DNA of 48,953 bases, filler included, from Candidatus Eiseniibacteriota bacterium (GTDB taxonomy: Bacteria > Orphanbacterota > Orphanbacteria > Orphanbacterales > Orphanbacteraceae), in NCBI GenBank assembly GCA_043809585.1. It is 2 parts of 2 records of this genome, joined end to end, with 100 filler letters (N's around TTAATTAATTAA, not from the genome) between each part and the next. Parts side by side here need not be neighbours in the genome. Positions count along the whole stretch, not along the records: positions 1 to 27,460 come from JBDROZ010000106.1; 1 more part is not named here. One strand, written 5' to 3'. The notes beneath the pieces were generated by a model that saw only the letters and a program-made list of their open reading frames with translations, did no database searches and was not told where the DNA came from. The position numbers and the translations under genes are program-made. Of this stretch, positions 183-46,246 are shown piece by piece (positions within the stretch are counted from its first letter, which is position 1; every line of letters starts with the position of its first letter).

Positions 183-3100
183 TTATCGTATCAGCACCAT
201 CCTCGCCGTCGCCGCCCCCTCCGCCGTCTCCACCCTCACGAAGTACACCCCCGACGCCGCCTCCCTTCCCCCGTCGTTCCTCCCCTCCCACACCACCTCG
301 TGCCGTCCCGCCTTCATCACCTCATCCGTGAGCGTCCGCACCCGGGCCCCGCGCACGTCATGCACCCGCACCGTCGCCCGTCCCTTCGCGGGAAGCGCGA
401 ACCGGACCGTCGTCCTCGGGTTGAAGGGGTTCGGCACGATTCCTTCGATCGCCACCCGCGCCGGAGGCGGCCCGGCGGCGAGATCCGTCCCCTGGAGGCT
501 CATGCGGATCCGCTCCCCCCTCACTCCGGCGACCTCGATCCACCGGGGAGTGACGACGGGGTCGGTCCCCTCGACACGGAGGAGGAGCGCCTCGTCCGCC
601 CCGCCCCGCTCCGCGCTGAACCAGAACGCCGATGCCCGGCCCCGCTCGGCATCGTACCGCACGATCCCGCCACTTCCGTCCGCCGCGCCGGCGCCCCTCT
701 CCCGGCCTCCCGACAGATCCGCGACGAGCCGCACCGCCCGGAGGGCGAAACCGGTCCTGAGCCGGACCACCCGCGCACTCCCCGGCGCGAAATCGAGATC
801 GAAGGCCCCCTCGATCACCGGACCTTCCGCCGGCTCCTCCGCCGCGAGCAGCCCCGCGAGGAAGACCACGTCGGCCACGTTGATCCGGCCGTCGCCGTTC
901 CCGTCGGCGCCGGCGCTGTCCGACGGGGAGAGCTTTTCGCCGAGCAGGGCATCGACGATCCGCGCTCCGTCCTCCACGTCCAGGCGGCAGTCCCAGTTCA
1001 CGTCTCCCACCGGCCGGCGCTCCGGATCGAGGGAGACGAAGAGAGGGATCGGTTCCTTCCCCGACAGCAGGGGATCGCTCACGACCAGGAGGCTCCCCGC
1101 CAGCACCACTCCGCACCGGTGAGGACCGATCGAAGCGGTCACGCTCTCGACCTCGCCCGATGCGAGATTCCCCGCCGCCGGGTCGAGCGCCACCCACGAG
1201 AGGGTGTCGTCGATCGACCAGGCCAGGGAGTTGAACCAGAAATTCTGCAGTACGAGAATCGAATCGGCGTAGGTCGAATCCGATCCGTTCCCGAAAATGA
1301 ACGACGTACCCGACGTCACCTCCAAGCCGGGGACGAAGGCGATGGCGAACCGCCGGGTCTCGGAAGCCGCCCCTTCTCCGCAAACGTTGCGGCCGGAGAC
1401 GCGCCACCGAAACTCGCCGATCGAATCGACCTCGGCGAGATTGTAGGACGTATCGGTCACGACCGCGTTGACCACAGGATCGGCGAAAGCGGAGTCCCTC
1501 GCGATTTCCACGCGGTACGAGGTCGCCCGGGCCCTCTTCTTCCACCGGAGCCGGAGGGGAACGGGGAGATCATGCGCGCCGTCCGCCGGGGAGACGAGGA
1601 CGGGCGTCCCGGGGACCGAAGTCGCCGATCCGGGGGACTGGCATCCGCCGGACGTCTCCCCGCACTGGTTGTAGGTGACGACCCGGTAGAAATAGCTCAC
1701 GCCCGGAACCACATTGTCGTCCTCGATCGAGATCGGCCCGAACCGGGGTCCGACGGTGAACGTGTCGGGGGGCGCGGAGGGTTGATCCGACCGCTGCCGG
1801 TAGACGCGGAATCCGAGGATGTTCTGGTTGATGTACTCCGGAGGCCAGAGCCAGGAGACCGTGATCCGGCCGCAGAGGCCGTCGGAGGCCGAACACTGTT
1901 GGGGCGCCGAGGGGAGGGCGGGCCGGATCCCCGAGGCGGTGCAGGAGGAGGTCGACACGAAGCAGGCGTTGCCCGCCTCGACGGAGTAGGCCACGGTGTC
2001 GCCGAAGGCCGGGGACGGATCGATGAAGGACGACACGCCGGCCGCGACGCTGTCGAGCAGCGCCCCGTCCTCCACCCGGCGGATCCGGAACCACTCGATC
2101 TCCGGGTGGACCCAGGTCCAGGTGAGGCGGATGCCGTCGCACGAGCTTGTCGTCGCGGCGCACGCGCCCCCGGGCGCCGGCCCGATGGGGCCGGGGATGC
2201 GTGCGGCGACGGTGCACGCCGCCGCGGAGCGGCCGCAGTCGTTCACGGAGAACACCCGCCACTCGTGGTCGACCCCCGGCGAGGCCGCGCCGTCCGTGAG
2301 GGCGAGACTGTCCGGCCCGACCGAGTCGACCAGGGTTCCCCCGTCCCGATAGACGAGATGCCCGAACGCCGCCTCCGCTCCGGCGGACCATGCGATGCGC
2401 ATGGCGGAGCAGGAGACCGGGGTCGCGGTGCAGGACGAGGGGGGCGGGGGAGGCGACGTGAAGAGCCGGCCCGTGTCGGTCACCGCCGCCGACTCCTCGC
2501 AGTTGAACGCCCGGATCGTGTAGACCACTTCTTCCAGGCCCGAAAGACCGTAGTCGTTGTAGACCGTCTGCTCCGGACCGAGGGTGATGGTCCCCCCGGG
2601 AGGGGAGGAGCGGACGATCCGGAATCCCTCGGGGGGGCCGCCGGTCGACGGCGGCGCCCATTCGAGGCGAATCGTTTCGCAGCGGTCTTTCGAAGCGGTG
2701 AAGGAATCGACCGGTCCCGGCGCGGTCGGCATCGTCCCCGAATCCTCACAGGCCGAAACGGAAAGGCCGCACTCGTTCCGAGATCGAACGCCGTATCGGT
2801 GCGGCACGTTCGGGGTCGCCGCGGAATCAACGAAGAACGTGTCGGTCTCGACACCGACCCGTACCCCGTCTCGGAAGATCAAGAACGAATCGACGACGCC
2901 CGGCTCGGACGGAATCGACCAATGCACGAAAACGACGCCGCACCGGTTATCGGACGCCGAACAAGCGGCCGTCGGAGGCGGAAGACCCACGCGCATCCCT
3001 TCGTTCGGGGTCGACGCCTCCGAAATCCCGCACTCGCTCCGGGTCCGCACACCGTACGAGGCGGCGACCATCGAATCGACCGCGCCGTCGATGAAGACCG

Positions 3101-4184
3101 CGGGCGAGTCGATGGGTACCGTGCCGATCTCTTCCCCGTCCCGGAAGACCGCGTACTCCGTGAAGGGACCGGCGACCGCGTTCCAGGTGATCACCACCGA
3201 ATCGCAAAGGCCGTCCGTCGCGGCGACGCCCGAGGGCGTCGGCGGCACCGCCCCCCGCCGACCGCTGTCCGCGGAGGCCGCGGCGGAGGAGTCGCACGAG
3301 TTCCACGCCACGACCCGGTACCGGTACCACTGCTCGGAATCGCCCGTCGTGTCGAGCCAGAAGTAGGGCGCCTCCGTTCGGACTCCGAGGACTACGTCGT
3401 CCCGGTAGATCACGAAGCTGTCGACGACACCGGGCCCCGCCCCGGGGACCCAGGTGATCTCCACGTCGGCGCAGCGGTCGTCGGAGGCGATGCATGAATC
3501 GGGCGAGGGCGGAACGCCGATGCGGAATCCCGCGTCGGAGACGGCCCCCGCCGAAGACCCGCACTCGCTTCGCCCCCGCACGGTGTAGACCAGGAGGCTG
3601 CCCGGGGGGGCGTCGAAGTCGTCATGGAGCGGGGCCCCGCCCCGGAGCACGGTCGCCAGCGAATCCTCCTCCCGGTAGACCACCCATGAATCGTAGTCGC
3701 CCGCCGCCGTCTGCCAGGTCACCCGGATCGTCCCGCAGAGATCGAGGGTGGCGTTCACGGCGAGAGGGTCGGGGGGCGCCGGCCTCACCTTGCCCGTGTC
3801 GACCGCCGCGAAGAGCGTGTCGCACGGGTTGTACGCGCCCACCGTGTACGCGTGGGAGGAGCCGGCGGCGGCGGCGGTGTCCTCGTACGCCTCCGCGTTC
3901 TCTCCGAGGACGGCGATCAGCGTGTCGCTCCGGAAAACGAGGTAGCCGAGTTCCCCGGCGGAGAGGTCGGTCCACGCGAGCGCCACCCGGTCACAGAGGG
4001 AATCGGTCGCCGCGAACCCCGAGGGGGCCACGGGGGTCGCGGGCACCGACCCCGTGTCGGGAGCGGAGGGCTCCGACGGGCCGCAGGGCGTCGTCCCCCA
4101 GACCGTGTAACGGTAGCGAACGCCGGGGGAGGCCGTCCCGTCCGTGAAGCTCGGGACCGTGAGGCCGGAGGCGATCGTGTCCAC
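183..4184 (-). CDS. Large secreted FN3-repeat protein, C-terminal part: Cys-patterned FN3 repeats, Ig/BACON-like domain, dockerin, FlgD-Ig/T9SS-like tail
   Basis: ~90-aa repeats (SDxxC..W..Y.V.A.NxCG); dockerin GDVNWDCRLDVED...ADGNGDGRINVADV; tail PNPFNP...SGVYF...RMVLIR. In frame with 4191-5066 across a single TAG. Confidence 0.85.
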   Translation of the reverse strand: MDTIASGLTVPSFTDGTASPGVRYRYTVWGTTPCGPSEPSAPDTGSVPATPVAPSGFAATDSLCDRVALAWTDLSAGELGYLVFRSDTLIAVLGENAEAYEDTAAAAGSSHAYTVGAYNPCDTLFAAVDTGKVRPAPPDPLAVNATLDLCGTIRVTWQTAAGDYDSWVVYREEDSLATVLRGGAPLHDDFDAPPGSLLVYTVRGRSECGSSAGAVSDAGFRIGVPPSPDSCIASDDRCADVEITWVPGAGPGVVDSFVIYRDDVVLGVRTEAPYFWLDTTGDSEQWYRYRVVAWNSCDSSAAASADSGRRGAVPPTPSGVAATDGLCDSVVITWNAVAGPFTEYAVFRDGEEIGTVPIDSPAVFIDGAVDSMVAASYGVRTRSECGISEASTPNEGMRVGLPPPTAACSASDNRCGVVFVHWSIPSEPGVVDSFLIFRDGVRVGVETDTFFVDSAATPNVPHRYGVRSRNECGLSVSACEDSGTMPTAPGPVDSFTASKDRCETIRLEWAPPSTGGPPEGFRIVRSSPPGGTITLGPEQTVYNDYGLSGLEEVVYTIRAFNCEESAAVTDTGRLFTSPPPPPSSCTATPVSCSAMRIAWSAGAEAAFGHLVYRDGGTLVDSVGPDSLALTDGAASPGVDHEWRVFSVNDCGRSAAACTVAARIPGPIGPAPGGACAATTSSCDGIRLTWTWVHPEIEWFRIRRVEDGALLDSVAAGVSSFIDPSPAFGDTVAYSVEAGNACFVSTSSCTASGIRPALPSAPQQCSASDGLCGRITVSWLWPPEYINQNILGFRVYRQRSDQPSAPPDTFTVGPRFGPISIEDDNVVPGVSYFYRVVTYNQCGETSGGCQSPGSATSVPGTPVLVSPADGAHDLPVPLRLRWKKRARATSYRVEIARDSAFADPVVNAVVTDTSYNLAEVDSIGEFRWRVSGRNVCGEGAASETRRFAIAFVPGLEVTSGTSFIFGNGSDSTYADSILVLQNFWFNSLAWSIDDTLSWVALDPAAGNLASGEVESVTASIGPHRCGVVLAGSLLVVSDPLLSGKEPIPLFVSLDPERRPVGDVNWDCRLDVEDGARIVDALLGEKLSPSDSAGADGNGDGRINVADVVFLAGLLAAEEPAEGPVIEGAFDLDFAPGSARVVRLRTGFALRAVRLVADLSGGRERGAGAADGSGGIVRYDAERGRASAFWFSAERGGADEALLLRVEGTDPVVTPRWIEVAGVRGERIRMSLQGTDLAAGPPPARVAIEGIVPNPFNPRTTVRFALPAKGRATVRVHDVRGARVRTLTDEVMKAGRHEVVWEGRNDGGREAASGVYFVRVETAEGAATARMVLIR

Positions 4185-4190
4185 CCGGGA

Positions 4191-5066
4191 CTAGTCGACC
4201 GGGCTCCGTCCGACGGAGAAGACGAAGAGGTCCGCCGTCGACGAGTCGTGCCAGGAGAGCGCGACCCCGTCACAGAGAGTGTCCGACGCGGTCAGGTCGT
4301 AGGGGGCGTAGAGGCTGTCGCAGAGAACCGAGACATCGTCGATGAACCACCCGCGAAAACCGTTCCGGAGGGAGTCGACGGTGTCGAAGACGAACCGGAA
4401 CGCCATCTCCCCTTCCACGCCCGTGGGGGCCGAGTAGGATCGGCGCTCCCAGACCGCCGGGGTGGCGTACCCGGTCGAGGTGAGGGGCCGGGAATTCGAT
4501 CCCCCGCCGGGGACCGCGGCGGCAAGCGCCGAGTCGACGAAGACGTCGAGAACCTGCCACGTCGCGCCGCTGTCGTTCGAGAACTCGACGATCATCCGGT
4601 CCGCCGAATCGGGACGAACGCTCTCCACCTCCCACCAGGTCCGGAACGAAAGGCGGACACTCTGCCCCGGGTTCGCGAGAAGGACCGGCGTCTCCGCCGT
4701 GTCGGTCCTCGCGGCGAGGCTGGTCCCCCCGCTCCAAAGCGTGTCCGCCGGGTTCCGGGGCGCCACGTACGTTCCGTTGCTCTCGTCGGACGCGACGAGA
4801 GAGCCGCTGCCCGCCCACGCCGCGGGCCAGAACCCGCCGTCCGGAAGGTGAACGAAGTTCAACCGGAGCGTGTCGCTCACGCGGATCACCTGGGGGAACG
4901 TGACCTCGTGCCAGGCGCCGGCGAAACGCCACCCGCCGGGCCCCGCGCTCTCGAACCCCTCCCGGTAGGGGACGCTCTCCGCCGGCGCGCCCCGAGGAAG
5001 GACGAGAAGGAACAGGGCCGCGCCGAGAAGGGCGGCCCGGGTGGAGCGGGCGCTCAATAGGTCCAT
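4191..5066 (-). CDS. N-terminal part of the same surface protein: signal peptide, jelly-roll/immune-inhibitor-A-like domain, first half of an FN3 repeat; ends at an in-frame TAG
   Basis: Signal peptide; EGFES...W, FRFVFD...GWFIDDV motifs; the repeat ASDTLCDGVALSW is completed only after the TAG at 4191-4193; start overlaps the upstream gene's stop. Confidence 0.8.
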   Translation of the reverse strand: MDLLSARSTRAALLGAALFLLVLPRGAPAESVPYREGFESAGPGGWRFAGAWHEVTFPQVIRVSDTLRLNFVHLPDGGFWPAAWAGSGSLVASDESNGTYVAPRNPADTLWSGGTSLAARTDTAETPVLLANPGQSVRLSFRTWWEVESVRPDSADRMIVEFSNDSGATWQVLDVFVDSALAAAVPGGGSNSRPLTSTGYATPAVWERRSYSAPTGVEGEMAFRFVFDTVDSLRNGFRGWFIDDVSVLCDSLYAPYDLTASDTLCDGVALSWHDSSTADLFVFSVGRSPVD

Positions 5067-9030: not shown

Positions 9031-9879
9031 CTACATCCCGAGAGCGATGATCTCCTTCTCCTCTTCGATCCTGTCGCGCAATTCTTCCCAGGTGCGGACG
9101 CCCCGGTAGAACTTCCCGTTCACGAGAATGCCCGGCGTCTTCTCCACGCCGAACTGGAGCCCCTCCATCTTCTCCGCCCGGAGACGGGCGACGAGGTCCT
9201 TCTCTTTCTCGTCGGCGTGGAGCTTCGCGAGGTCGAGCCCGATCTTTCCGGCGAGTTCGTCGATACGCGTCCGGGTCAGGTCGGCGTCCCCTTCGAAGAG
9301 GGCGTCGTGCATCTCCCAGAATTTCCCCTGCTTCTCCGCGGCCAGGAGCGCGAGCGCCGCGGGCACCGCGTACTCGTGGGCCTTGAGGGGGTAGTTCTTG
9401 AAGTAGAGGGCGATCTCCTTCGGCTGCTTCACCACCCTCTTCCGGAGGGCGATCGACGTGACCCGGCAGTAAGGGCATCCGAAGTCGGCGTAGAGCACCA
9501 CTTGGATCGGCGCCTTCGGGTCGCCCGACACGATCAGGCCCGTCAGGTCGGGCGCGTAGGTCTGCTCCGGAAAGGCGGAGAGCCTCCGGTCCTCGATCTC
9601 CTCCAGGATCTCCGACTCGTCCTTGTCGGCACGGACCCGGCGGGCCACGAACGCCGCGATCCGCCGGGCGATCTTGTCGTCCGGGTTCGAGGCGAGACAG
9701 GCGGCCACCGTCTTCCCGCAGCCGCCGTAGCAAGGGGCGGTGTTCAGGACCTCTTCGGCCACCTCGAGGTAGATCCCCTTCAAATCGCCTCCCCCGTCGA
9801 TCCGGTCCCAGGGGATCGCCCCCGTCGCCGGGGCCGCGGCCAGAAGGAACGACACCGGAATCATCCACGCTCTACGCAT
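9031..9879 (-). CDS. DsbA-family thiol-disulfide oxidoreductase with a Cys-containing N-terminal domain
   Basis: Signal peptide; PCYGGCGKTVAAC; YADFGCPYC; KNYPL; GVEKTPG. Confidence 0.85.
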   Translation of the reverse strand: MRRAWMIPVSFLLAAAPATGAIPWDRIDGGGDLKGIYLEVAEEVLNTAPCYGGCGKTVAACLASNPDDKIARRIAAFVARRVRADKDESEILEEIEDRRLSAFPEQTYAPDLTGLIVSGDPKAPIQVVLYADFGCPYCRVTSIALRKRVVKQPKEIALYFKNYPLKAHEYAVPAALALLAAEKQGKFWEMHDALFEGDADLTRTRIDELAGKIGLDLAKLHADEKEKDLVARLRAEKMEGLQFGVEKTPGILVNGKFYRGVRTWEELRDRIEEEKEIIALGM

Positions 9880-10354
9880 GACTCGTACGCCTCCGTAGGA
9901 ATCGATCCAAACCGAACCGCCCGTCATCGAGGAGAAGGACATAGGCGGCCAGAAGGACCCACAGAATGTCGCGAACCAAGGTCCCCGTGCCGATCTGCTC
10001 CGCCGCCTCCTGGGAGGCGAAGCACCCGCACGACATCTGATAGCCCCGGGCGAGGGCGATGCCGAGGGAGGTCGTGAACATGATCAGCATGCCGAGGATC
10101 AAGAGGGCGTTTGCCCTCGTCCACACCCCCGCGATCAGCAAACCCCCCGTGATCAGCTCGAGCCAGGGGAGAAAGATCGCGAAGAGATTGACCGCCGGAA
10201 GAGGAAGGATCTGATAAGTCGCCACCGAAAGGGCGAACTCGTACGGCTCCTGAATCTTGTGAAGGCTCGCCAGCACGAACACGCCGCCGAGGTAGACGCG
10301 GATCGGCGCGCCGATCGCCGCCAGGGCCCTGCTTCTCGTCTCTCCGAAGCCCAT
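9872..10354 (-). CDS. MauE/DoxX family membrane protein
   Basis: RVYLGGVFVLASLHKI, LPWLEL, SCGCF motif; four hydrophobic segments. Confidence 0.9.
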   Translation of the reverse strand: MGFGETRSRALAAIGAPIRVYLGGVFVLASLHKIQEPYEFALSVATYQILPLPAVNLFAIFLPWLELITGGLLIAGVWTRANALLILGMLIMFTTSLGIALARGYQMSCGCFASQEAAEQIGTGTLVRDILWVLLAAYVLLLDDGRFGLDRFLRRRTSHA

Positions 10355-10357
10355 GCC

Positions 10358-10843
10358 CTATTCCGCGGCGGCGCCGAGAAGAGCCCGCCAATCCTCGTCC
10401 TCGTTCAGGTATTGGACGAAGCCGACCCCCTGGTTCAGGAAGTCGTTCGCCAGGAGCCGGGCCGTCGGGACGTCCCCGATGACGACCACCGTCCGGTCCC
10501 CCGCCGCCTCCTTCACCGCCCCGATCTCCTCCTCGGAGATCGGGAAGAGCGGATCGTAGGGAACCGAGAGGGCCCCCTCCGCGTGCTCCGCGCCGAACTC
10601 GTCGGGCATCCGGGAGTCGACGAGGAAGAAGTAGTCCGGGTTCTCCTGAAGCTCCTCGAGGGAGACGGCGGCCGCTTCTTCCTCTCCCTCGGGGCACTCG
10701 TCGTAAATCTCGTACTCCGAATCGGCGACCCAATCGAGAGAGTCGGCGCGGACGGCGTTGTAGCCGAGGGCGATCACCGACGCCGCGGAGACGATCAGGG
10801 CCGATTGCAGAAACAACCCGACGCGCCACATTCGATAATTCAT
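10358..10843 (-). CDS. Membrane-anchored rhodanese-like domain protein, apparently lacking the catalytic Cys
   Basis: LVDSRMPDEFGAEHAEGALSVP rhodanese signature; N-terminal TM segment; VVVIGD where a Cys loop is expected. Confidence 0.8.
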   Translation of the reverse strand: MNYRMWRVGLFLQSALIVSAASVIALGYNAVRADSLDWVADSEYEIYDECPEGEEEAAAVSLEELQENPDYFFLVDSRMPDEFGAEHAEGALSVPYDPLFPISEEEIGAVKEAAGDRTVVVIGDVPTARLLANDFLNQGVGFVQYLNEDEDWRALLGAAAE

Positions 10844-12055: not shown

Positions 12056-15000
12056 TCATCTTACCAGGATCATTCGAACGGTGCGGACGCCTTCCTCCGT
12101 CTCGAGCCGGGCGAAGTAGATCCCCGAGGCCGCTTCGCCCCCGAGATCGGTGAGGCCGTCCCACCGGGCGCTCCGCCATCCCGCCCCTTCCGCCCCCTCC
12201 CGCAGGGTCGCCACCGCCCGGCCGGCCGGATCGTACACGACGAGCCGCACCCGGGCGGGGGCCGGCAGGTAGTACGCGAGCTCCGTCACCGGGTTGAACG
12301 GGTTCGGCCGGTTCGGCGCGAGAAGGAGGGCCCCCTCCCGCGCCACCGCCACCGGAGCCCCTCCGGTCCGGAAGGAGCGCATCGTTCCGTCCGTCCCGAT
12401 CCAGGTCATGGTCTCCAGGCGGATCCGCTCCGGACCCTCCCCGCCCGCCGTGAGAATCTCGAGACGGGGCAGGAGGGCGTCGGATCGGACGAAGGGGGAT
12501 CCCGGACCCGCCGGTGTGACGAGCACCCGGAGCCTTCCCCCCGACGATCCGTATCGGACATCGACCTCCCCTTCGTCGACGCCGAGAGCGGCGACTCCGA
12601 GGACGCCGGCCCCTCCCCCGAGATCGATCTCGAGGAACCCGCACCTCCCCCCTTCGGCCATGTCGAAGGAGAGGACCACCCGCGTCCGACCCGGCTCCTC
12701 CGCCGGCCGGGACCGGGCCTCGAAAAGGAGGGGCGCCGCTCGGGCCGCGGGCCCGCTCATTCCCTCCCGAACGATCACTCCGGCGAGAAGGACCAGGTCG
12801 GCCACGGTGAAGCGGCCGTCGCCGTTCAGGTCGATCCTCTCGATCGGATAAACGGACGGGTCCGTTTCGCCGAGCAGGAAGGCGAGGGCGAGATCGACGT
12901 CGGCGAGGTCCCGCCGGTAGTTGCCGTCCATGTCGCCGAAGGGCCGCTCCGCCGGCTTGGTCGTGAACGTGAGGGGGGGCAGGTCCTCGAAGGACCGGCC
13001 GAAGACGTCCTCGAGGCCGGAGTAGTCGAACAGGTACGTCTCCCCGTACCGGAGGAAGGAGGCCGGTTCGAAGACGAGCACGCTCCCCCCGCCTTCGAGG
13101 GAGCGGTCTCCGGCGACGGCCACGCCGGCGGCGGTGAGCGCCGCGGCGCCGATGGTGGCCCCGTTCACGGGGACGCTGAAGGTGACGCGGATCACGACGT
13201 CCACGTCCACTTCGATCTCTCCGTCGGCGGGTGTGCTCGCGAGCGCCGCGGGGGCGAGGCCGAAGGTCGTGAACCGCCGCCACGCCGACGGCACCCCCGT
13301 GCCGCAAAGGCTCCGGGTCGCCACGCGCCACCGGTAGCCGCCGCCGAGGGCGAGGCCGGACACGGAGAACTTCGTCACGTTCCCGATCGCCGTGTCCACG
13401 ACCACCGCCCCCCCCGGCGCCTCTTCCACCCGGAGGGCGTACCCGGCGGCCCCCCCGACCGCCTCCCACGAGAGGAGGACGGGTATCGGCAATCCTTCCG
13501 CGCCGTCTTCCGGCCCGGCCGGCGCGGGCGCCGCGAGTCCGGCCCGGGCGCGCCCCGTCGCCCCCCCTCCGGCCGCCGAGAGACCGCAGAAGTTCTCCGT
13601 GAACACGGCGTAGACGTACTCCACCCCCTCGATCACGTCCCCGTCGGCGTAGCCCGTCTCCGGCGCCTCCACCGTCGCGATCGCGGCGCCGTCCCGCTCG
13701 ATCCGGTACCTCGCCGCCGCGCCCGGAGGAGTCGTCCACGTCAGAAGGATCTCTCCGCACCGATCCGTCGTCGCCGTGAGCCCGGGCGGCGCGGTGGGGG
13801 GGGCGATCACGGCCACCGAGAAGGGGGCGCTCCGGCCGCCGGTGCCGCACACGCCGACCGCCTGCACTTGGAAAGTGCGCGTTCCCGCCGTCCCGGCCGT
13901 CACGACGGCCGAATCGACCGTTCCACCGAGGAGCGCCAAGAGCCGGTCCACGCCGCCGGTGGTCTCGAAGAGACGGTAGCTCAGCACGCCCGGATCGCCG
14001 CTCCACCGGAGCGTGAAGGACCCGCCCGCGCAGGCGATCGAATCGGACCGCCCGTCGAAGGCGCTCCCCGGAATGGGCGGCAGGAATCCCCCTTCGTCCC
14101 GGGACGTCGCGTTCCCGGTGGAGGGGCCGCATTCGTTGAAGGCGACCACCTCGTAGAGGTACGTCCCCTCGCCGGCCCGGTCCACGAAGCGCCGAGCCGA
14201 CCCCGAGAGGGCCGGAGCGACGACGATGGTCGTGTCGTTCCGGCTCCGGACCACCTGAAAGCCGTCGATGGGCGTCCCCGTCGCCGGGACCGCCCACTCG
14301 ACGACCACCGAGTCGCAGGAGGCGTTGGTGGCGATCACCGACACCGGCGCCGGGGGGCGGGTGCGGATCCGCGTGACCGACACGGCCACCCCTCCCGACT
14401 CCCCGCAACCGTTGTAGGGGCGCACGCTGTACGTCACGGCCCCCCCCGGCTCGTCCGTGAAGCGGCCGTCGCCGGGCCCCTGGAAGACGAGAACGGGAGG
14501 GCCCGTGCCGGACCGGTAGATCCGCACGCTGTCCGGTTGGGCCGCCCAGGAAACGACGACCTCGTCGCATGCCGTCGTGTCGATGGCGACGGCGGCGGGG
14601 GGAGACGGGGCTCGGCTGATCGTCACGGTCCACGGGTCGCCCGCCCCCCCGAGCCCGCATTCGTTTCGGGCCCTCACCACGAAGAGATGGGCCCCGATCT
14701 CGTCGATCCTGCGGGAGACTTCCGTCTCCGCGACCGTGGTGTCCGCCTCCCCGTCCCTCTCGATCTCGTAGACCGAGACGCCGGGGATCTCTTCCCATCG
14801 AAGGATGAACGGAACGCCCGCGCACGCCCCAGCCGGGGCGCCCGTCCACGAGGGCACCGGGGGACGGCTTACGGCGGAACCCGAGTCCGACGACGCGGCG
14901 GAGACGCCGCAACGGGACAGGGCCCGGACCCGGTAGAGATAGGACTGCCCGGAAACTCCGGTCGTGTCCACCACGCGAAGGGTGTCCGCGGCGGGGATCC

Positions 15001-18000
15001 TGGCGATCACGGCCACGCTGAAACCGCGGATCCGCTCGACCACGAAGGTATCGACCGCGGCGCGGCCGTCGCTCGGATAGTCCCACGCGATGACGACCGA
15101 ATCGCACCCGCCGGTGGCGCTCACCGATTCGGGCGCGGCGACACCGAGGGGAAGGGCGTAGCCGGCCACCGTGTCCGACGGGGCCAGAGTTCCGCACGCG
15201 TTCCAGCCGCCGATCACGTATTCTCTCGGGCCCCCCGCCGGTAACGAATCGACCCACGATTCCATGTCGCTCATGTAGAACCGCGCGCCCCCCGCAGGCT
15301 CGACCCACACGTCGCTCGCCGGGCCGGCGGACCAGACGATTTCAATGGCGCCGCAAAGGTCGCCGCTCGCCTCCACGCCGTCGGGAGGAGCAGGGGCGGG
15401 CTGGACCTCCACGTTCCGGGGGTCGCCCGCGGGGCCCTCCCCGCACACGCCTTCCGCGAAGACCCGGTACGTGTAGATGCCCGGCGCCGCCCGCGCCGTC
15501 TCGAAGAAGGTCCCGGCCACCCGGTCCTCCCGCCCGCTCCCTTCTTCGACGACCACGTATCCCGTCGCGCCTTCCACGGGATTCCACTCGAGTCGGAAGG
15601 TCTCGCCCCCGCACACCTCGATGGCCGCCGCCCCGACCCAATCGGGGACGCCGGGCGGGCCGAGCCGGGTCCCGGTGTCGACGGCGCCGTCCGTCTCGGC
15701 CGACCCGCCGCACTCGTCGAAGGCGAGTACCCGGTAGTCGTACGTCCCCGGCGCCGGGGCGTGTACATAGCGGAGGGCGCCGCCGGGATCGACGAGGCCG
15801 AGGCGGGTCCAGTTCGGGCCCGCCCCCGTCACCCGGAAGGAAACGCGGAAACTGTCGATCGCCATCAGGTCCGAAGGATAAGACCAGGTGATGGTCACCT
15901 CGTCGCATCCCCCATCGGTGGCGGCCACGTCCGCGGGGGAATCGGGGACCCCGACGTCCCTCTCGCCCGTCACCGGATCGCTCCGGTTCCCGCCGCAGCC
16001 GTTCCACGCCTCGATCCGGTACGAATGGGAACCGCTCGCCACTTCCTGGTCCTTGTACTCGGTGACGTTCGGACCGAGATCCGCCAGCGGGGAAGGGGCG
16101 CCGTCCCGGTAGACGCGGTAACCCGTTTCGTTCGCCCCGTCGCTCCACGTGACGAGAATGAACCGGCAGCTCGAGTCGGACGCGGCGGGATTCGAAGGGG
16201 CCGGCGGGGCGTCGGGGGGACGCGTTCCCGCGGCGGCCTCGCTCCGAGGGGAGGCGCCGCACCAGTTCCGCGCGTCGACCTGGTAGGTGTAGAGCACTCC
16301 GGGCGCCGCCGTCAGGTCCCGATGGTAGAGGTCGGTCCAGGGAATGGTCGCGATCGGAACGCCGTTCCGGTAGAGCACATAGTCGTCGGCGTGATCGGCG
16401 CGGCTCCAGCGCACCTCGATCCCGCCGCAGAGGTCGTCGGTCACCGAGAGGATCTGGGGCGTCTCGGGGGCATCGTAGGGGCGCGCCCCTCTCGCCGAGT
16501 CGGAATATGCGGGAAGGGCCGAGCATCCGTTGAAGGCGCCGACGAAGTAGACATGGGACTCGCCCGGCTCGACGGCCCCGTCGAAGTACTCGGCCTCGTC
16601 CGCCCCGAGAGAATCGATCACCGCCGAGTCCCGCACCACGAAGTAGCCCTCCTCCCAGGGGCCGTCCGTCCAGCGAAGGGTGATGCCGCCGCACGCCGAA
16701 TCGGCTTCCACGGCCGCCGGCCCGCCGGGGGGCGGGATCGCGAGACCCGAATCGGGGGCCGAGAGTTCCGGGAGGAGGGCGCAGCCGTTCCAGGCGGCGA
16801 TCCGGTACTCGGCGGAGACGCCGGCGGCGATCGACGTGTCGAGATAGGCCGTCTCCCCGGCGTCGAGGGAGTCGATCAGGACCGAGTCGCGGAAGACGAG
16901 GTACCCCTCTTCGTCATCCCCGTCGGGCCAGGTGAGGAAGACGCCGTCGCACCGGTCACGGGTGGCCGAAAGGCCGGCGGGGGGGAGCGGCGGATCGGGG
17001 GGACGGACGCCACGGGCGGTGTCGCTCTCGGCCGACTCGCCGCAGAGTCCGGCGGCGATCACCGAGTAGAGATGGGAGATCGCCGGGACCGTCCCGTCGT
17101 CATCGAACACCGTCGTGTCCGTGGCGGCGAGGAACGCGCCGTCCCGCAGCACCCGGTACTCCACTCCCCCTTCCACGGGCGCCCACGTCACGCGCACGGC
17201 GCCGCAGACCGTGTCGCTCGCCGCTACGCCGTCGGGGACGTCCGGAGAGTCGGGGGGGCGGGTCCCCTCGTCGCCGGTCCGGGGACCGGCGCCGCAGATC
17301 CCGACCGCCTCCACTTCGTACAGGTAGGCTCCGGGCGGGGGAGTGTCGGTCCACGTCGTGTCCCCTCCGGTCGACGCGATCCGGAGCGAATCGCGATAGA
17401 CATGAAAGGAATCGGCGCCGGGGACGGCGCCCCACACGATCGCCACCGCCCCGCAGACCATGTCGGAGGCGTCGACGATGGCGGGGGCGGGGGGTGAGTC
17501 CGGGGGCCGTTCGCCGGCCGCCGAGACCGAGTCGGACCGGCCGCAGAGGCCGAGGGCGCCGACCCAGTACGTGTTCGCGCCGACTGCCGCGCCCGTATCG
17601 CGATAGAAGGGGGAGGCGGCGGGCACTTCGGCCAGGAAGACCGAGTCCCGGTAGATCACGTATCCCGTGTCGAAGGGGGCGGCCGTCCATTCGACTCGGA
17701 CGAGGCCGCAGGAGTCGGTCGACGCGGCGAGCCCCGAAGGGGGGACGGGAGCGGGAACCGCGGTTCCCGAGTCGAGGACCGCCGCCGACCGGCCGCAGCC
17801 GTTGGCGCCGGACACGCCGTACACGTGGACGCCCGTCACCGTGTCGTCGGACCAGGACCCGGCCGGCGCGGGGAGGGCGGCCACCTCGGCCCCGTCCCGG
17901 AAGACGACATAGGTGTCCGCGTCCGCCGCGGCCTCCCAGGAGAGGTCGACCCGTCCGCAGATCGTGTCCGTCGCCGCCAGCGAGAGCGGCGCGCCCGGCG

Positions 18001-19306
18001 CGGGGAATGCGTTCCCGCTGTCGGCGGCCGCCGCCGAGCGGCCGCAGGGGGTCGCCGCGAGGACCAAGTACTCGTGGGAGCCGGACCCGTTCGTGTCGGA
18101 CCAGGCGAGGGCGGGGGGAAGCACCGAAGCGATCTCGGTCGAATCGCGGAAGACGACATACGTGTCGACCGCCGCGGAGGCGCCCCACGCGAGATCGACC
18201 CGGCCGCAGAGGGTGTCCGTCGCCGTGAGGAACGGGGGGGCCGCGGGCGGGGGAGGAACCCGGGCCGAGTCGACGGCCGCCCCCGACCACCCGCACGGGT
18301 TGCCCGCCTCCACGCCGTACTCGTACTCCCCGGCGGGCACCGTGTCCCGATAGGCGAGGACCGCCGCCGGAACCGTCGCGAGAAGGGCGCCGTTCCGGGA
18401 GACGCGGAAACTGTCCGTGTCCGCCGGAAGGGACCATTGAAGGAAGACGTGATCGCACAGGTCGTCGCTCGCCGAGACGCCCACCGGCGGCGGCGGCGCG
18501 TCGGGGGGCCGTACGCCCTGGATGGGGGCGCTGAAGGCCGATGACCCGCAGGGGCCGACCGACCGCACTTCGTAGGTGTGGGGACCGGGGGCCGCGGTGG
18601 AATCGCGAAGCGCCGTACCCGGGAGGGCCACGAGGAAGGCTCCATCACGCCGAACCCGGTAGGTGATGGTGTAGGGAACGGAGGACCAGTCGAGACGGAT
18701 GAAGCCGCACGAGTCCATCGATGCCGTCACCGTCGCCGGCGGCACCGAAACCGGAAAGACGGTGCCCGAGTCGGTCGCCGGCGCCGAGCGGCCGCACCCG
18801 TTCGCGGCCCGCACGGCGTATTCGTACTCTCCGGGCGGCGGGGCGTCTTCATAGGAGAGGGACGAAGCGGAGAGGACGATGATCTCCGTGCCGTTCCGGA
18901 AGACGGCGTACGAATCCGCTTCGACCGACGCCGACCAGTCGAGACGGACGAGAGCGCACGACGTGTCGCTCGCGACGAGCGTTGCCGGAGGCTCCGGCAC
19001 GACCGGGCGGAAACCGGTCGCCGAGGCGCTCTCCCCGATTCCCGTCGAATCGATACCGGCTACGAAGTAGAACACGGATCCGGCGGGGGCGGCGGCGTCC
19101 CGGAAGAAGTTGTCCTCCGTGTAGAAAACGGTCGAGTCCCGGCTCACATAGAACGAGTCCGCTTCCGGAAAGAGGTCCCAGGAGACCCGGATGCCCCAAC
19201 AGGAGTCGACCGAGGCCGTGGCGCCGGTGGGCGCGGGCAAAAGGGCGGCCGCGGCCGACGGAAGCCCGAAAGCCGAAAGGGCGAGAAGAAGAAAGGCCCG
19301 CTTCAT
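12056..19306 (-). CDS. Giant secreted FN3-repeat protein (~2416 aa) with SbsA-type Ig domain, dockerin and FlgD-Ig/T9SS-like tail
   Basis: Signal peptide MKRAFLLLALSAF; more than 20 FN3-like repeats; STPADGEIEVDVD..VTFS Ig domain; GDMDGNYRRDLAD...IDLNGDGRFTVADL; PNPFNP...RMILVR. Confidence 0.88.
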   Translation of the reverse strand: MKRAFLLLALSAFGLPSAAAALLPAPTGATASVDSCWGIRVSWDLFPEADSFYVSRDSTVFYTEDNFFRDAAAPAGSVFYFVAGIDSTGIGESASATGFRPVVPEPPATLVASDTSCALVRLDWSASVEADSYAVFRNGTEIIVLSASSLSYEDAPPPGEYEYAVRAANGCGRSAPATDSGTVFPVSVPPATVTASMDSCGFIRLDWSSVPYTITYRVRRDGAFLVALPGTALRDSTAAPGPHTYEVRSVGPCGSSAFSAPIQGVRPPDAPPPPVGVSASDDLCDHVFLQWSLPADTDSFRVSRNGALLATVPAAVLAYRDTVPAGEYEYGVEAGNPCGWSGAAVDSARVPPPPAAPPFLTATDTLCGRVDLAWGASAAVDTYVVFRDSTEIASVLPPALAWSDTNGSGSHEYLVLAATPCGRSAAAADSGNAFPAPGAPLSLAATDTICGRVDLSWEAAADADTYVVFRDGAEVAALPAPAGSWSDDTVTGVHVYGVSGANGCGRSAAVLDSGTAVPAPVPPSGLAASTDSCGLVRVEWTAAPFDTGYVIYRDSVFLAEVPAASPFYRDTGAAVGANTYWVGALGLCGRSDSVSAAGERPPDSPPAPAIVDASDMVCGAVAIVWGAVPGADSFHVYRDSLRIASTGGDTTWTDTPPPGAYLYEVEAVGICGAGPRTGDEGTRPPDSPDVPDGVAASDTVCGAVRVTWAPVEGGVEYRVLRDGAFLAATDTTVFDDDGTVPAISHLYSVIAAGLCGESAESDTARGVRPPDPPLPPAGLSATRDRCDGVFLTWPDGDDEEGYLVFRDSVLIDSLDAGETAYLDTSIAAGVSAEYRIAAWNGCALLPELSAPDSGLAIPPPGGPAAVEADSACGGITLRWTDGPWEEGYFVVRDSAVIDSLGADEAEYFDGAVEPGESHVYFVGAFNGCSALPAYSDSARGARPYDAPETPQILSVTDDLCGGIEVRWSRADHADDYVLYRNGVPIATIPWTDLYHRDLTAAPGVLYTYQVDARNWCGASPRSEAAAGTRPPDAPPAPSNPAASDSSCRFILVTWSDGANETGYRVYRDGAPSPLADLGPNVTEYKDQEVASGSHSYRIEAWNGCGGNRSDPVTGERDVGVPDSPADVAATDGGCDEVTITWSYPSDLMAIDSFRVSFRVTGAGPNWTRLGLVDPGGALRYVHAPAPGTYDYRVLAFDECGGSAETDGAVDTGTRLGPPGVPDWVGAAAIEVCGGETFRLEWNPVEGATGYVVVEEGSGREDRVAGTFFETARAAPGIYTYRVFAEGVCGEGPAGDPRNVEVQPAPAPPDGVEASGDLCGAIEIVWSAGPASDVWVEPAGGARFYMSDMESWVDSLPAGGPREYVIGGWNACGTLAPSDTVAGYALPLGVAAPESVSATGGCDSVVIAWDYPSDGRAAVDTFVVERIRGFSVAVIARIPAADTLRVVDTTGVSGQSYLYRVRALSRCGVSAASSDSGSAVSRPPVPSWTGAPAGACAGVPFILRWEEIPGVSVYEIERDGEADTTVAETEVSRRIDEIGAHLFVVRARNECGLGGAGDPWTVTISRAPSPPAAVAIDTTACDEVVVSWAAQPDSVRIYRSGTGPPVLVFQGPGDGRFTDEPGGAVTYSVRPYNGCGESGGVAVSVTRIRTRPPAPVSVIATNASCDSVVVEWAVPATGTPIDGFQVVRSRNDTTIVVAPALSGSARRFVDRAGEGTYLYEVVAFNECGPSTGNATSRDEGGFLPPIPGSAFDGRSDSIACAGGSFTLRWSGDPGVLSYRLFETTGGVDRLLALLGGTVDSAVVTAGTAGTRTFQVQAVGVCGTGGRSAPFSVAVIAPPTAPPGLTATTDRCGEILLTWTTPPGAAARYRIERDGAAIATVEAPETGYADGDVIEGVEYVYAVFTENFCGLSAAGGGATGRARAGLAAPAPAGPEDGAEGLPIPVLLSWEAVGGAAGYALRVEEAPGGAVVVDTAIGNVTKFSVSGLALGGGYRWRVATRSLCGTGVPSAWRRFTTFGLAPAALASTPADGEIEVDVDVVIRVTFSVPVNGATIGAAALTAAGVAVAGDRSLEGGGSVLVFEPASFLRYGETYLFDYSGLEDVFGRSFEDLPPLTFTTKPAERPFGDMDGNYRRDLADVDLALAFLLGETDPSVYPIERIDLNGDGRFTVADLVLLAGVIVREGMSGPAARAAPLLFEARSRPAEEPGRTRVVLSFDMAEGGRCGFLEIDLGGGAGVLGVAALGVDEGEVDVRYGSSGGRLRVLVTPAGPGSPFVRSDALLPRLEILTAGGEGPERIRLETMTWIGTDGTMRSFRTGGAPVAVAREGALLLAPNRPNPFNPVTELAYYLPAPARVRLVVYDPAGRAVATLREGAEGAGWRSARWDGLTDLGGEAASGIYFARLETEEGVRTVRMILVR

Positions 19307-19413
19307 CAGGGAGTTCCTCAGCGAAACCGCTCGGCCGGCGCGGGGCCGGCGCCCGGCCCCACTTATGCGGGGAGGAAGAAAAGACGGCCCCAAGGCCGGA
19401 TCGAGACACATTC

Positions 19414-20368: not shown

Positions 20369-21714
20369 ATGCAGGAATCAACGCCTTCCTCCGAGAACGA
20401 CGCCTCGACTGATCGCCCTCCCAGCCGAGGCGTCCCGCAGCACCTACAATCGAATCGAGAGAGTCTTTTCGACTTCCCCGCGGTGTCCGCTCCGGGGACC
20501 CGTTGGAAGGACTGGCGCTGGCAAATGTCCCATCGGATCCGGAGCCTCGAAGACCTCCTCGAGTTCGCCGGAGACTCGCCGGAGACGGTCGGTCTCGACA
20601 TGGCGACGGCGAAGTTCCCCATGTCGATCACTCCGTATTACGCCTCCCTGATCCGGCGGTTCGACGACTCCGATCCGCTCTTCCGGATGGCCGTGCCCCA
20701 GATGGCGGAGCTGCACGACCCTCCGTTCCTCCGGGACGATCCTCTCGAGGAAAACGACGACATGCCGGTCCCCGGCCTCGTCCACCGCTATGCGGACCGG
20801 GCCCTTCTCATCGCCACGACGACCTGTTCCGTCTACTGCCGGCACTGCACGCGGAAGCGCGCGGCGGGCGTCCGGGAGACGGCGATCTCCGCCCGCCGCC
20901 TCGAGCAGACCGTGGAGTATCTCGAGACGCACCCGGAGATCCGGGACGTCATCGTCTCGGGCGGCGATCCCTTCACGATGACCACCGCGGCCCTCGACCG
21001 GATCCTCTCGGCGATCCGCACCGTGCCGAGCGTCGACATCATCCGGGTCGGCACCCGGACGCCGGTGACCATGCCCATGCGCGTCACCGACGAGCTGGCC
21101 GAGATGCTCCGGAGTCACCGGCCGGTCTGGGTGAACACGCACTTCAACCACCCCAACGAGGTTTCGCCCGACGCGGCCGAAGCGTGCGAGCGTCTCGTGG
21201 ACGCGGGGATCCCCGTGGGCAACCAGTCGGTTCTCCTCGCCGGCGTCAACGACGACCCGAGGACGATTGAAGCGCTCTGCCGGGCCCTCGTGCGCATCCG
21301 CGTGCGCCCCTACTACCTGTTCCAGTGCGACCTCGTTCGCGGGGTCGAGCACTTCCGCACGCCCCTTTCGCGGGGGATCGAGATCATGGAGTACCTGCGC
21401 GGCCGCATGAGCGGTCTCGCCATCCCGACGTTCGTGGTCGACGCCCCCCACGGCGGCGGCAAGATCCCCGTCCTGCCGAACTACATCGTCTCCACGAGCC
21501 CGACCCACACGGTGCTCCGGAACTTCGAGGGGACCCTCGTTTCCTATCCCGAACCGAACGCCCCTGTGACGCGGAAGGCGACGGGAACGGACTTCGCCCC
21601 CGGGGTGTGGGACCTCGCGAGCGGCGGGGCGACCGTCATCCAGCCCTCCCGGACGGCGCGCGGGAAGCGCCGCCCCCGGAAGAAGAAGCGCCCCGAGGAG
21701 ACGGGCTCCCGGAA

Positions 21715-21718
<4 letters not shown>
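20369..21718 (+). CDS. kamA: Lysine 2,3-aminomutase (KamA family radical SAM/PLP enzyme)
   Basis: GLVHRYADR, CSVYCRHC, SGGDP, HFNHPNE, PYYLFQCD, VVDAPHGGGKIP. Confidence 0.92.
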
Positions 21719-23454
<1,736 letters not shown>

Positions 23455-46008: not shown

Positions 46009-46246
46009 CGGAAACGATCTCCTCTCTCTTGGGCGGGACGAAGGCGCCCCCGAGCGCGCGGGTGCGCCCTTTTCCATCGAACCTGGGGGAGACGGAATCA
46101 ACGGGGGAGAGACATCGGGACATGCCCGATCAGAGAGCATTAAGGATAGCATTCAGGCGCCCAAATGTAAAGTATTGATTTTGATGGGCTTTGCTTCGAA
46201 AATCTGCGCAGAATGCCCCCATTCGGGGATAAACACAGAAACTGTC

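What the first reader, a model, noticed from the sequence alone, without database searches (positions are those of the whole stretch)
12056..19306. FN3 repeats whose Cys pattern implies inter-domain disulfide staples (covalently braced surface rods)
Seen: most repeats carry one Cys after strand A (SDxxC) and one late Cys (NxCG). The first repeat has only the early Cys (SVDSC...IDSTG); the last has only the late Cys (PEDGA...RSLCG). The protein at 183 also ends with a late-Cys-only repeat, and the two-repeat S8 protease follows the same rule. Known: FN3 A-B and F-G loops lie at opposite poles of the domain, so these two Cys should not pair within one domain. Inference: Cys(AB, repeat n) bonds Cys(FG, repeat n+1), making a stiff stalk resistant to force or proteolysis. 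I do not recognise this as a described bacterial FN3 subfamily.
Basis: partly seen in the sequence, partly recalled or inferred. Interest (0 to 1): 0.8.

Follow-up and report, generated by a model that had tools for sequence, protein, structure and literature searches.

The report
Disulfide-laddered FN3 surface rod
A giant secreted bacterial protein is a chain of 23 small fibronectin-type beads whose cysteines follow a strict rule best read as a disulfide bond tying each bead to the next, a bracing principle already seen in one solved bacterial surface rod but not reported for this bead type.

Summary
The gene at 12056-19306(-) encodes a signal peptide, 23 FN3 repeats, a Big_5 domain and a T9SS-type C-terminal sorting domain. 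Repeat 1 has only the early Cys (A-B loop), repeat 23 only the late Cys (F-G turn), and repeats 2-22 have both. In 47 homologous proteins with 709 repeat junctions, early Cys(n) and late Cys(n+1) are present or absent together in 704-707 junctions, including 9 double losses. The two Cys of one repeat show no association (phi about 0). S8-protease orthologues with two repeats carry Cys/none then none/Cys, and those with one repeat carry neither. AlphaFold2 models two and three repeats as a confident straight rod (pTM 0.83). No coordinates were available, so S-S distances were not measured. The genome's only DsbA-like and MauE genes lie between the two FN3 giants. Domain-to-domain disulfides are already known from the solved GhpA grappling hook. 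This scan has also noted Cys-stapled rods, one of them an FN3 array, on other DNA. I therefore class it as a well-supported new variant, not a new principle.

The parts
12056..19306 (-). Gene for the 2416-aa FN3 giant (the long ORF runs on to 19411; the likely start is MKRAFLLL at 19306)
   Evidence: P0006 is identical to part of P0001 and starts at MKRAFLLL.
19235..19306 (-). N-terminal signal-peptide-like segment (MKRAFLLLALSAFGLPSAAAALL)
   Evidence: Read from the sequence; inference, no signal-peptide predictor was run.
13259..19234 (-). Array of 23 FN3 repeats (aa 60-2051). It holds 44 Cys: 22 early and 22 late.
   Evidence: (Pfam fn3, 80.6 bits).
18992..19234 (-). Repeat 1: early Cys only (C71)
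13259..13522 (-). Repeat 23, a special terminal repeat: late Cys only (C2036)
   Evidence: The same terminal repeat type occurs in homologues.
12959..13255 (-). Big_5 bacterial Ig-like domain
   Evidence: PF13205, 33.4 bits
12068..12307 (-). C-terminal sorting domain (FlgD_ig / T9SS type A)
   Evidence: PF13860, 36.6 bits; TIGR04183, 26.3 bits against a cut-off of 23
10358..10843 (-). Rhodanese-domain gene
9872..10354 (-). MauE/DoxX membrane protein with a CGC (CXC) motif. It is the only MauE hit in the genome.
   Evidence: (88.5 bits)
9031..9942 (-). DsbA-like thioredoxin-fold protein with a CPYC motif. It is the only DSBA/Thioredoxin_4 hit in the genome.
183..5066 (-). Second FN3-array gene, about 11 repeats, with the same Cys rule. 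It is interrupted by one in-frame TAG at 4191-4193, inside repeat 1.
43744..44238 (-). Two FN3 repeats of the S8 protease (gene 42109-46152). Repeat 1 has the early Cys only and repeat 2 the late Cys only.

Best explanation
The protein is a Sec-exported, T9SS-sorted surface rod of 23 head-to-tail FN3 domains. The Cys in the A-B loop of domain n (C-terminal pole) forms a disulfide with the Cys at the F-G turn of domain n+1 (N-terminal pole). That gives 22 staggered, overlapping staples from C71 to C2036. Each staple closes a loop of about 135 residues that overlaps the next one. Two things follow (inference). Every peptide bond in the array lies inside at least one closed loop, so a single nick cannot sever the rod. 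The load path runs only through strand G, the linker and strand A (29-33 residues) plus disulfides, so domain unfolding can release little length. The bonds would be made in the periplasm by the DsbA-like (CPYC) and MauE (CXC) pair encoded between the two FN3 giants. Shown here: the Cys pattern, its covariation, the FN3 fold, a confident rod-like model, and the presence of the oxidase genes. Inferred: the bond chemistry, the stiffness, and the enzyme-substrate link.
For: (1) Within the window, early(n) and late(n+1) are invariant in 23 of 23 di-repeats.

(2) Across 47 proteins, 778 repeats and 709 junctions, early(n) against late(n+1) gives CC 695, C- 3, -C 2, -- 9 (phi 0.78, Fisher 1e-16). 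With a wider late-Cys window it gives CC 698, C- 0, -C 2, -- 9 (phi 0.90). Same-repeat pairing gives CC 705, C- 31, -C 32, -- 1 (phi -0.01).

(3) In each double loss, late(n) and early(n+1) lying between the two lost Cys are kept. Loss of a contiguous stretch of sequence therefore cannot explain them.

(4) S8 orthologues: 3 of 3 two-repeat forms are C-/-C, and 2 of 2 one-repeat forms have neither Cys.

(5) Array ends. The first repeat keeps its late Cys in 26 of 27 arrays preceded by a domain with a Cys in its last 40 aa. It keeps it in 0 of 5 with no such Cys, and in 1 of 9 arrays that start right after the N-terminus. The last repeat keeps its early Cys in 1 of 18 arrays with no Cys in the next 100 aa, and in 16 of 20 with one.

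(6) Propeller-preceded arrays: 6 of 6 with a W-x-C 16 aa upstream keep the late Cys of repeat 1. The one with Y-T-T lacks it.

(7) AlphaFold2: the di-repeat has pLDDT 96.7 and pTM 0.83; the tri-repeat has pLDDT 97.6 and pTM 0.83. DSSP puts the Cys in the A-B loop and the F-G turn. The best multi-domain matches are extended FN3 tandems: 6x3a at rmsd 3.0 A over 164 residues and TMq 0.75.

(8) Oxidative-folding genes are present and conserved next to FN3 genes in G003 and G004. MauE can replace DsbB (abstract of bioRxiv 10.64898/2026.03.05.709764).

(9) Precedent: GhpA has intramolecular disulfides between neighbouring Ig-like domains.
Against: No S-S distance, PAE or coordinates could be obtained, so 3D adjacency of the two Cys is inferred from FN3 topology (recalled) together with covariation. 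The homologues are related to each other. The 9 double losses reduce to about 5 distinct sequence contexts, so the P values overstate independence. The protein set was chosen by having many two-Cys repeats. P0131 gives 2 junctions that break the rule; its repeats are a different subtype with additional Cys. P0108 and P0052 break the end rules and look like truncated or frameshifted records. P0001 has one further Cys (C2257) with no obvious partner. The linker between strand G and the next strand A is about 9 residues in the model, longer than I would expect for a tight tandem. No experimental data exist for this protein.
Confidence: 0.8

Rival explanations
1. The two Cys of each repeat pair with each other (ordinary intradomain disulfide).
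For: Most repeats (705-711 of 769) carry both Cys.
Against: Same-repeat association is nil (phi -0.01 to -0.04). 58-63 of 769 repeats have only one of the two Cys. The two-repeat S8 forms have one Cys per domain. DSSP puts the Cys in the A-B loop and the F-G turn, which lie at opposite poles of an FN3 domain (recalled topology).
Confidence: 0.03
2. Early(n) and late(n+1) do meet at the domain interface, but not as a simple disulfide. They could be free thiols, a shared metal site, or another sulfur cross-link; a rhodanese gene sits in the cluster.
For: Covariation shows coupling, not chemistry. The rhodanese gene lies next to MauE and DsbA and the arrangement is conserved.
Against: Two thiols alone make a poor metal site, and no conserved His or extra Cys accompanies them in the consensus. 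The proteins are exported. A CPYC DsbA-like protein and a CXC MauE are encoded nearby. GhpA shows real disulfides in an analogous position.
Confidence: 0.08
3. The Cys link different molecules: parallel protomers offset by one repeat are disulfide-bonded into a bundle or lattice.
For: GhpA rods are seven-stranded bundles. Sequence covariation cannot separate links within a chain from links between chains with a fixed one-repeat offset.
Against: In GhpA the disulfides are described as intramolecular and the lateral contacts as hydrogen bonds. The end rules also apply to enzymes with two repeats and to partner Cys in non-FN3 neighbour domains of the same chain. AlphaFold2 gives a confident head-to-tail monomer.
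Confidence: 0.07
4. Late(n) pairs with early(n+1), closing short loops of about 30 residues across the linker.
For: The spacing is very regular at 29-33 residues.
Against: phi is 0.07-0.08. It would leave C71 and C2036 unpaired. The two sites would be about two domain lengths apart in a head-to-tail rod (inference).
Confidence: 0.02

Closest known systems
GhpA, grappling-hook protein of Aureispira sp. (T9SS substrate; bioRxiv 10.1101/2024.01.29.577165, passages read; PDB codes 9flp and others known only from earlier scan notes)
   Same: It is a giant Sec/T9SS-exported surface rod of tandem beta-sandwich repeats with a C-terminal sorting domain. [quoted passage not shown] The authors link these to a straight, rigid stem.
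   Different: GhpA repeats are called Ig-like and did not appear among the listed FN3 matches, so homology of the repeats was not established here. GhpA is a heptameric hollow bundle from Bacteroidota with a hook head. Nothing here shows multimerisation, and P0001 has no head domain. The A-B loop to F-G turn rule, the end rules and the MauE-DsbA neighbourhood are not taken from that paper.
Canonical tandem FN3 arrays (for example RPTP delta FN4-FN6 6x3a, LAR, titin A-band)
   Same: The domain fold matches (7jgu Z 13.6, rmsd 1.5 A over 82 residues). The models are extended head-to-tail arrangements (6x3a rmsd 3.0 A over 164 residues; TMq 0.75 for three domains). The conserved strand-B Trp and strand-F Tyr are present.
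   Different: In the 3 printed alignments these arrays have no Cys at the two positions. They rely on non-covalent interfaces.
Cross-linked Gram-positive adhesin repeats (for example the Mobiluncus mulieris giant adhesin, PMC10619420, passages read)
   Same: They are long single-chain rods of repeated Ig-like domains made robust by covalent cross-links.
   Different: Those cross-links (ester, isopeptide, disulfide) lie within one domain, and the authors describe a flexible interdomain linker. Here the cross-link is between domains.
Ca2+-rigidified RTX adhesin repeats (PMC7493085 and PMC4083281, abstracts seen in the listing)
   Same: They have the same apparent purpose: stiffening a tandem beta-sandwich stalk at the domain junctions.
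   Different: Stiffening there comes from Ca2+ in the linkers of T1SS substrates. Here the linkers are Pro-rich, and the Pfam scan listed no RTX family.
MauE-centred oxidative folding pathway (bioRxiv 10.64898/2026.03.05.709764, abstract read)
   Same: The window's MauE has the CXC motif and sits beside a CPYC DsbA-like gene. The genome showed no DsbB or VKOR match.
   Different: Activity was not tested here, and the link to the FN3 giants is by gene neighbourhood only.

Membership tests
Fibronectin type III domain (Pfam PF00041) | Match to the family HMM above the curated cut-off | tested here: met
   80.6 bits against a cut-off of 25 for P0001; 66.1 bits for P0002
Fibronectin type III domain (Pfam PF00041) | Seven-strand beta-sandwich that superposes on solved FN3 domains | tested here: met
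   DSSP strands A-G; 7jgu Z 13.6, rmsd 1.5 A over 82 residues; 5x83 Z 12.5, rmsd 1.5 A over 85
Fibronectin type III domain (Pfam PF00041) | Conserved strand-B Trp and strand-F Tyr | tested here: met
   the Trp is invariant; the Tyr is at least 90% conserved in A1 and A3
T9SS type A cargo | C-terminal sorting domain (TIGR04183 / FlgD_ig-like) | tested here: met
   26.3 bits against a cut-off of 23; PF13860, 36.6 bits
T9SS type A cargo | T9SS machinery in the same genome | tested here: inconclusive
   two PorU-like sortase matches over the cut-off (551 and 520 bits); 147 FlgD_ig matches. Other core genes (SprA, PorV, GldKLMN) were not searched.
T9SS type A cargo | Actual secretion and surface attachment | not testable with these tools
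   Needs proteomics or microscopy
GhpA-type interdomain-disulfide rod | Disulfide joining neighbouring repeat domains of one chain | tested here: inconclusive
   Covariation strongly supports coupling of early(n) with late(n+1). No distance or bond was measured.
GhpA-type interdomain-disulfide rod | Sequence or fold relationship of the repeat to GhpA repeats | tested here: inconclusive
   No GhpA entry appeared among the rows listed. The lists are capped and dominated by eukaryotic FN3.
GhpA-type interdomain-disulfide rod | Multimeric (heptameric) bundle | not tested
   No test of oligomerisation was run
Intradomain cross-linked adhesin repeats (isopeptide, ester or intradomain disulfide) | Cross-link partners lie within the same domain | tested here: not met
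   same-repeat phi is -0.01 and 63 of 769 repeats have a single Cys; the S8 two-repeat forms
DsbA / MauE oxidative folding pair | DsbA-like thioredoxin fold with a CxxC motif; MauE with a CXC motif | tested here: met
   Thioredoxin_4 75.3 bits, DSBA 52.5 bits, MauE 88.5 bits; CPYC; CGC
DsbA / MauE oxidative folding pair | Oxidase activity on the FN3 giants | not testable with these tools
   Only gene neighbourhood is available, conserved in G003 and G004

The most novel reading that the evidence does not exclude
The staggered A-B/F-G staples form two interleaved covalent load paths along a rod of very roughly 80-90 nm. The rod would then be almost inextensible and tolerant of single nicks. It would be zipped domain by domain during Sec export by a dedicated rhodanese-MauE-DsbA module that stays next to its FN3 substrates in this Eisenbacteria family, which has no detectable DsbB or VKOR. 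That would be an FN3-specific, enzyme-coupled version of the GhpA principle, and a natural substrate for the newly described MauE pathway.
Probability: 0.35. Interest if true: 0.65.

Novelty: new variant of a known kind. Interest (0 to 1): 0.5.

Why it matters
Bacterial surface stalks are known to be stiffened by Ca2+ in linkers, by cross-links within domains or by bundling. A junction-by-junction disulfide ladder has direct structural support only in GhpA. This case shows the same principle in true FN3 domains, with a simple and checkable sequence rule: an A-B loop Cys in repeat n and an F-G turn Cys in repeat n+1. The rule predicts which end repeats and which neighbouring domains carry a Cys. 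It holds in Eisenbacteria-labelled and Calditrichota-labelled proteins. It also offers a minimal test object, the two-Cys, two-FN3 segment of the S8 protease. Finally, it names a plausible natural client for the MauE-DsbA pathway. It is not a new kind of system.

Tried and rejected
1. Measuring SG-SG distances.

2. Complex prediction with S8 repeat 1 and repeat 2 as separate chains scored 0.03 against a mark of 0.32. The verdict was 'no answer'; it is not evidence either way.

3. A first tri-repeat alignment from overlapping windows (A2) was mis-registered at 640 columns and was discarded. It was replaced by 69 non-overlapping rows chosen from 78 candidates; the 9 rows that aligned out of register in a local MAFFT test were dropped.

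4. A looser late-Cys window used to select proteins pulled in unrelated Cys-bearing FN3 proteins (P0105, P0158) and produced 14 apparent exceptions. I replaced it with a stricter family definition and report both late-Cys windows.

5. A second Cys pair (7 residues before the early Cys and 7 after the late Cys) was tested for same-repeat against next-repeat association over 171 proteins. phi was 0.10-0.18 for all three pairings, which is inconclusive.

6. Literature searches found no paper on inter-domain disulfides in bacterial FN3 arrays. The GhpA precedent came from an earlier scan note and was then read.

7. No GhpA entry appeared in the listed PDB matches.

8. The search of earlier findings by sequence found no look-alike window.
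Full report
WHAT IS THERE. The long minus-strand ORF 12056-19411 translates to 2451 aa. A signal-peptide-like N-terminus (by eye) is followed by 23 repeats of about 83 aa, at aa 60-2051. Then come a Big_5 domain and a FlgD_ig / T9SS type A C-terminal sorting domain. Pfam calls the repeats fn3 (80.6 bits). The genome is 97.5% complete. It has two PorU-like sortase matches above the cut-off and 147 FlgD_ig-type matches, so this is one of many cargoes with this tail. Earlier scan notes call the genome an uncultured Eisenbacteria. A 54%-identical orthologue of the window's S8 protease carries that name in its source.

THE OBSERVATION. It is confirmed. The array holds 44 Cys in a strict rhythm: 53-65 residues from early to late within a repeat and 29-33 from late to the next early. 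Repeat 1 has only the early Cys, repeat 23 only the late Cys, and repeats 2-22 have both. The protein at 183-4184(-) ends in the same late-only terminal repeat. The S8 protease at 42109-46152(-) has two repeats, early-only then late-only. In 23 aligned di-repeats, early(n) and late(n+1) are invariant, whereas late(n) and early(n+1) are not.

FOLD AND GEOMETRY. AlphaFold2 on a di-repeat (23-row alignment) gave pLDDT 96.7 and pTM 0.83. On a tri-repeat (69 rows from the window and from relatives' loci) it gave pLDDT 97.6 and pTM 0.83. DSSP places the early Cys between strands A and B and the late Cys at the F-G turn, at the tip of long F and G strands. Single domains superpose on solved FN3 at rmsd 1.5 A (7jgu, Z 13.6). 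The best multi-domain matches are extended head-to-tail FN3 tandems: 6x3a at rmsd 3.0 A over 164 residues and TMq 0.75 for three domains. Most other tandems fit poorly, with TMq 0.3-0.6. In FN3 (recalled topology) the A-B loop lies at the C-terminal pole and the F-G loop at the N-terminal pole. In a head-to-tail rod the A-B loop of n therefore faces the F-G loop of n+1.

COMPARATIVE TEST. A profile of the di-repeats found 154,991 representatives at E <= 1e-3. I annotated the best 150, 18 further proteins from a word-based search and this genome's own copies, using a repeat HMM. I defined the family as proteins with at least 4 repeats, and at least half of all repeats, carrying both Cys. That gave 43 proteins, to which I added three two-repeat S8 forms and P0159. 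The set has 778 repeats and 709 adjacent junctions.
- Early(n) against late(n+1): CC 695, C- 3, -C 2, -- 9 (phi 0.78, Fisher 1e-16).
- The three 'C-' cases have the late Cys shifted in a longer F-G loop. With a wider window the table is CC 698, C- 0, -C 2, -- 9 (phi 0.90).
- The two '-C' cases are in P0131, whose repeats are a different subtype with additional Cys.
- The two Cys of one repeat are not associated: CC 705, C- 31, -C 32, -- 1 (phi -0.01).
- Late(n) against early(n+1) is not associated either (phi 0.07).

In every double loss, the late(n) and early(n+1) Cys lying between the two lost positions are retained. Loss of a contiguous stretch of sequence cannot produce that pattern. There are caveats. 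The proteins are related, and the nine double losses fall into about five sequence contexts: P0004 r1-2; P0011 r20-21; P0027 r11-12 with P0043 and P0077 r15-16; P0043 and P0077 r5-6; P0121 and P0154 r3-4. The P values are therefore too optimistic. The set was also chosen by Cys content, although that choice does not dictate which neighbour loses its Cys.

ARRAY ENDS AND SMALL ARRAYS. The S8 orthologues are the cleanest case. The 3 of 3 two-repeat forms (P0155, which is this window's protein, P0156 and P0157) are C-/-C. The 2 of 2 one-repeat forms (P0165, P0167) have neither Cys.

The first repeat keeps a late Cys in 26 of 27 arrays that follow a domain with a Cys in its last 40 residues. It keeps one in 0 of 5 arrays with no such Cys. 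It keeps one in 1 of 9 arrays that start right after the N-terminus; the exception is P0108, which has no signal-like start. Six of six propeller-preceded arrays with W-x-C 16 residues before the early Cys keep the late Cys of repeat 1. P0121, with Y-T-T at that spot, lacks it.

The last repeat keeps its early Cys in 1 of 18 arrays with no Cys in the next 100 residues (the exception, P0052, has a garbled terminal repeat) and in 16 of 20 arrays with one. In seven giant orthologues fetched from relatives' genomes, 6 of 7 lack the late Cys in repeat 1 (the seventh is cut by its contig end) and 7 of 7 lack the early Cys in the last repeat. These loci probably overlap the database proteins and are not independent of them.

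MECHANISM (inferred). With early(n)-late(n+1) bonds, all 44 array Cys are paired in 22 overlapping loops of about 135 residues, from C71 to C2036. Every peptide bond in between lies inside at least one loop, so one cut cannot separate the chain. Under tension the covalent path alternates a disulfide with the 29-33 residues of strand G, linker and strand A (spacing). Strands B to F are bypassed. Unfolding of a domain would therefore release little length.

The bonds need a periplasmic oxidase. The genome's only DSBA/Thioredoxin_4 match (with a CPYC motif) and its only MauE match (with a CGC motif) lie at 9031-10354(-), next to a rhodanese gene and between the two FN3 giants. No DsbB or VKOR match was found. 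MauE was recently reported to replace DsbB, with a CXC active site (abstract). The order rhodanese, MauE, DsbA-like, Omp28/CTD, TPR, FN3 protein is kept in two other genera of the family, G003 and G004. In G001 and G002 the DsbA-like gene lies on a contig with no listed FN3 match, although 69 matches were not listed. The enzyme-substrate link is neighbourhood evidence only.

WHAT IS KNOWN. My own searches found nothing on inter-domain disulfides in bacterial FN3 arrays. [quoted passage not shown] The authors tie these to the rigid stem. The principle is therefore published. The scan has also reported Cys-stapled rods on other DNA: 22 notes mention GhpA and disulfide, and one describes an FN3 array with about 900 junctions. 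None is a sequence look-alike of this window.

Gram-positive adhesins differ: their cross-links lie within domains and the linker is flexible. RTX adhesins stiffen their junctions with Ca2+ (abstracts). No solved structure by sequence carries Cys at the two positions in the 3 alignments shown.

VERDICT. It is a new FN3 variant of a known bracing principle. The additions are a clean sequence rule, a minimal two-Cys test fragment and a co-located MauE-DsbA module. The bond itself, the stiffness and the oxidase link remain to be shown.

Noticed in passing
window 4191-4193 (-), inside the gene 183-5066: The second FN3 giant is one 1656-codon frame interrupted by a single in-frame TAG within its first repeat (...SPVD*SRVD...). 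It may be a nonsense mutation, an assembly error or read-through.
   Followed up: partly
window 9031-10843 (-); L024 and L025: A rhodanese, MauE (CGC) and DsbA-like (CPYC) gene trio, followed by an Omp28/CTD protein and a TPR protein, lies between the FN3 giants. The order is kept in G003 and G004. These are the genome's only DsbA-family and MauE hits, and no DsbB or VKOR match was found.
   Followed up: partly
window 183-4184 (-) repeats; genome contig C84 protein (1224-aa ORF): A second Cys pair occurs 7 residues before the early Cys and 7 after the late Cys. The C84 protein has only this pair in 5 of 5 repeats, including an isolated repeat, which suggests an intradomain A-G strand disulfide. 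A wider co-occurrence test was inconclusive.
   Followed up: partly
window 27461-48953: Only positions 1-27460 map to contig C106. The rest of the window lies on other contig(s); the S8 protease is on C110. The S8 gene is therefore not physically linked to the FN3 giants in the assembly.
   Followed up: no
window 12056-19306 (-), aa 2257 of the long ORF: One extra Cys lies in the region between the Big_5 domain and the sorting domain, with no obvious partner.
   Followed up: no
window 20369-23454 (+): A lysine-2,3-aminomutase-like radical SAM gene overlaps a GNAT plus histone-deacetylase-domain ORF, divergent from the FN3 giant. It was not examined.
   Followed up: no
genome contig C69 (L023) and homologues P0025, P0028, P0070, P0111, P0154: The propeller-like N-terminal domains end in a conserved W-x-C exactly 16 residues before the first FN3's early Cys. 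This Cys co-varies with the late Cys of repeat 1, so the staple rule extends to a non-FN3 neighbour domain.
   Followed up: yes
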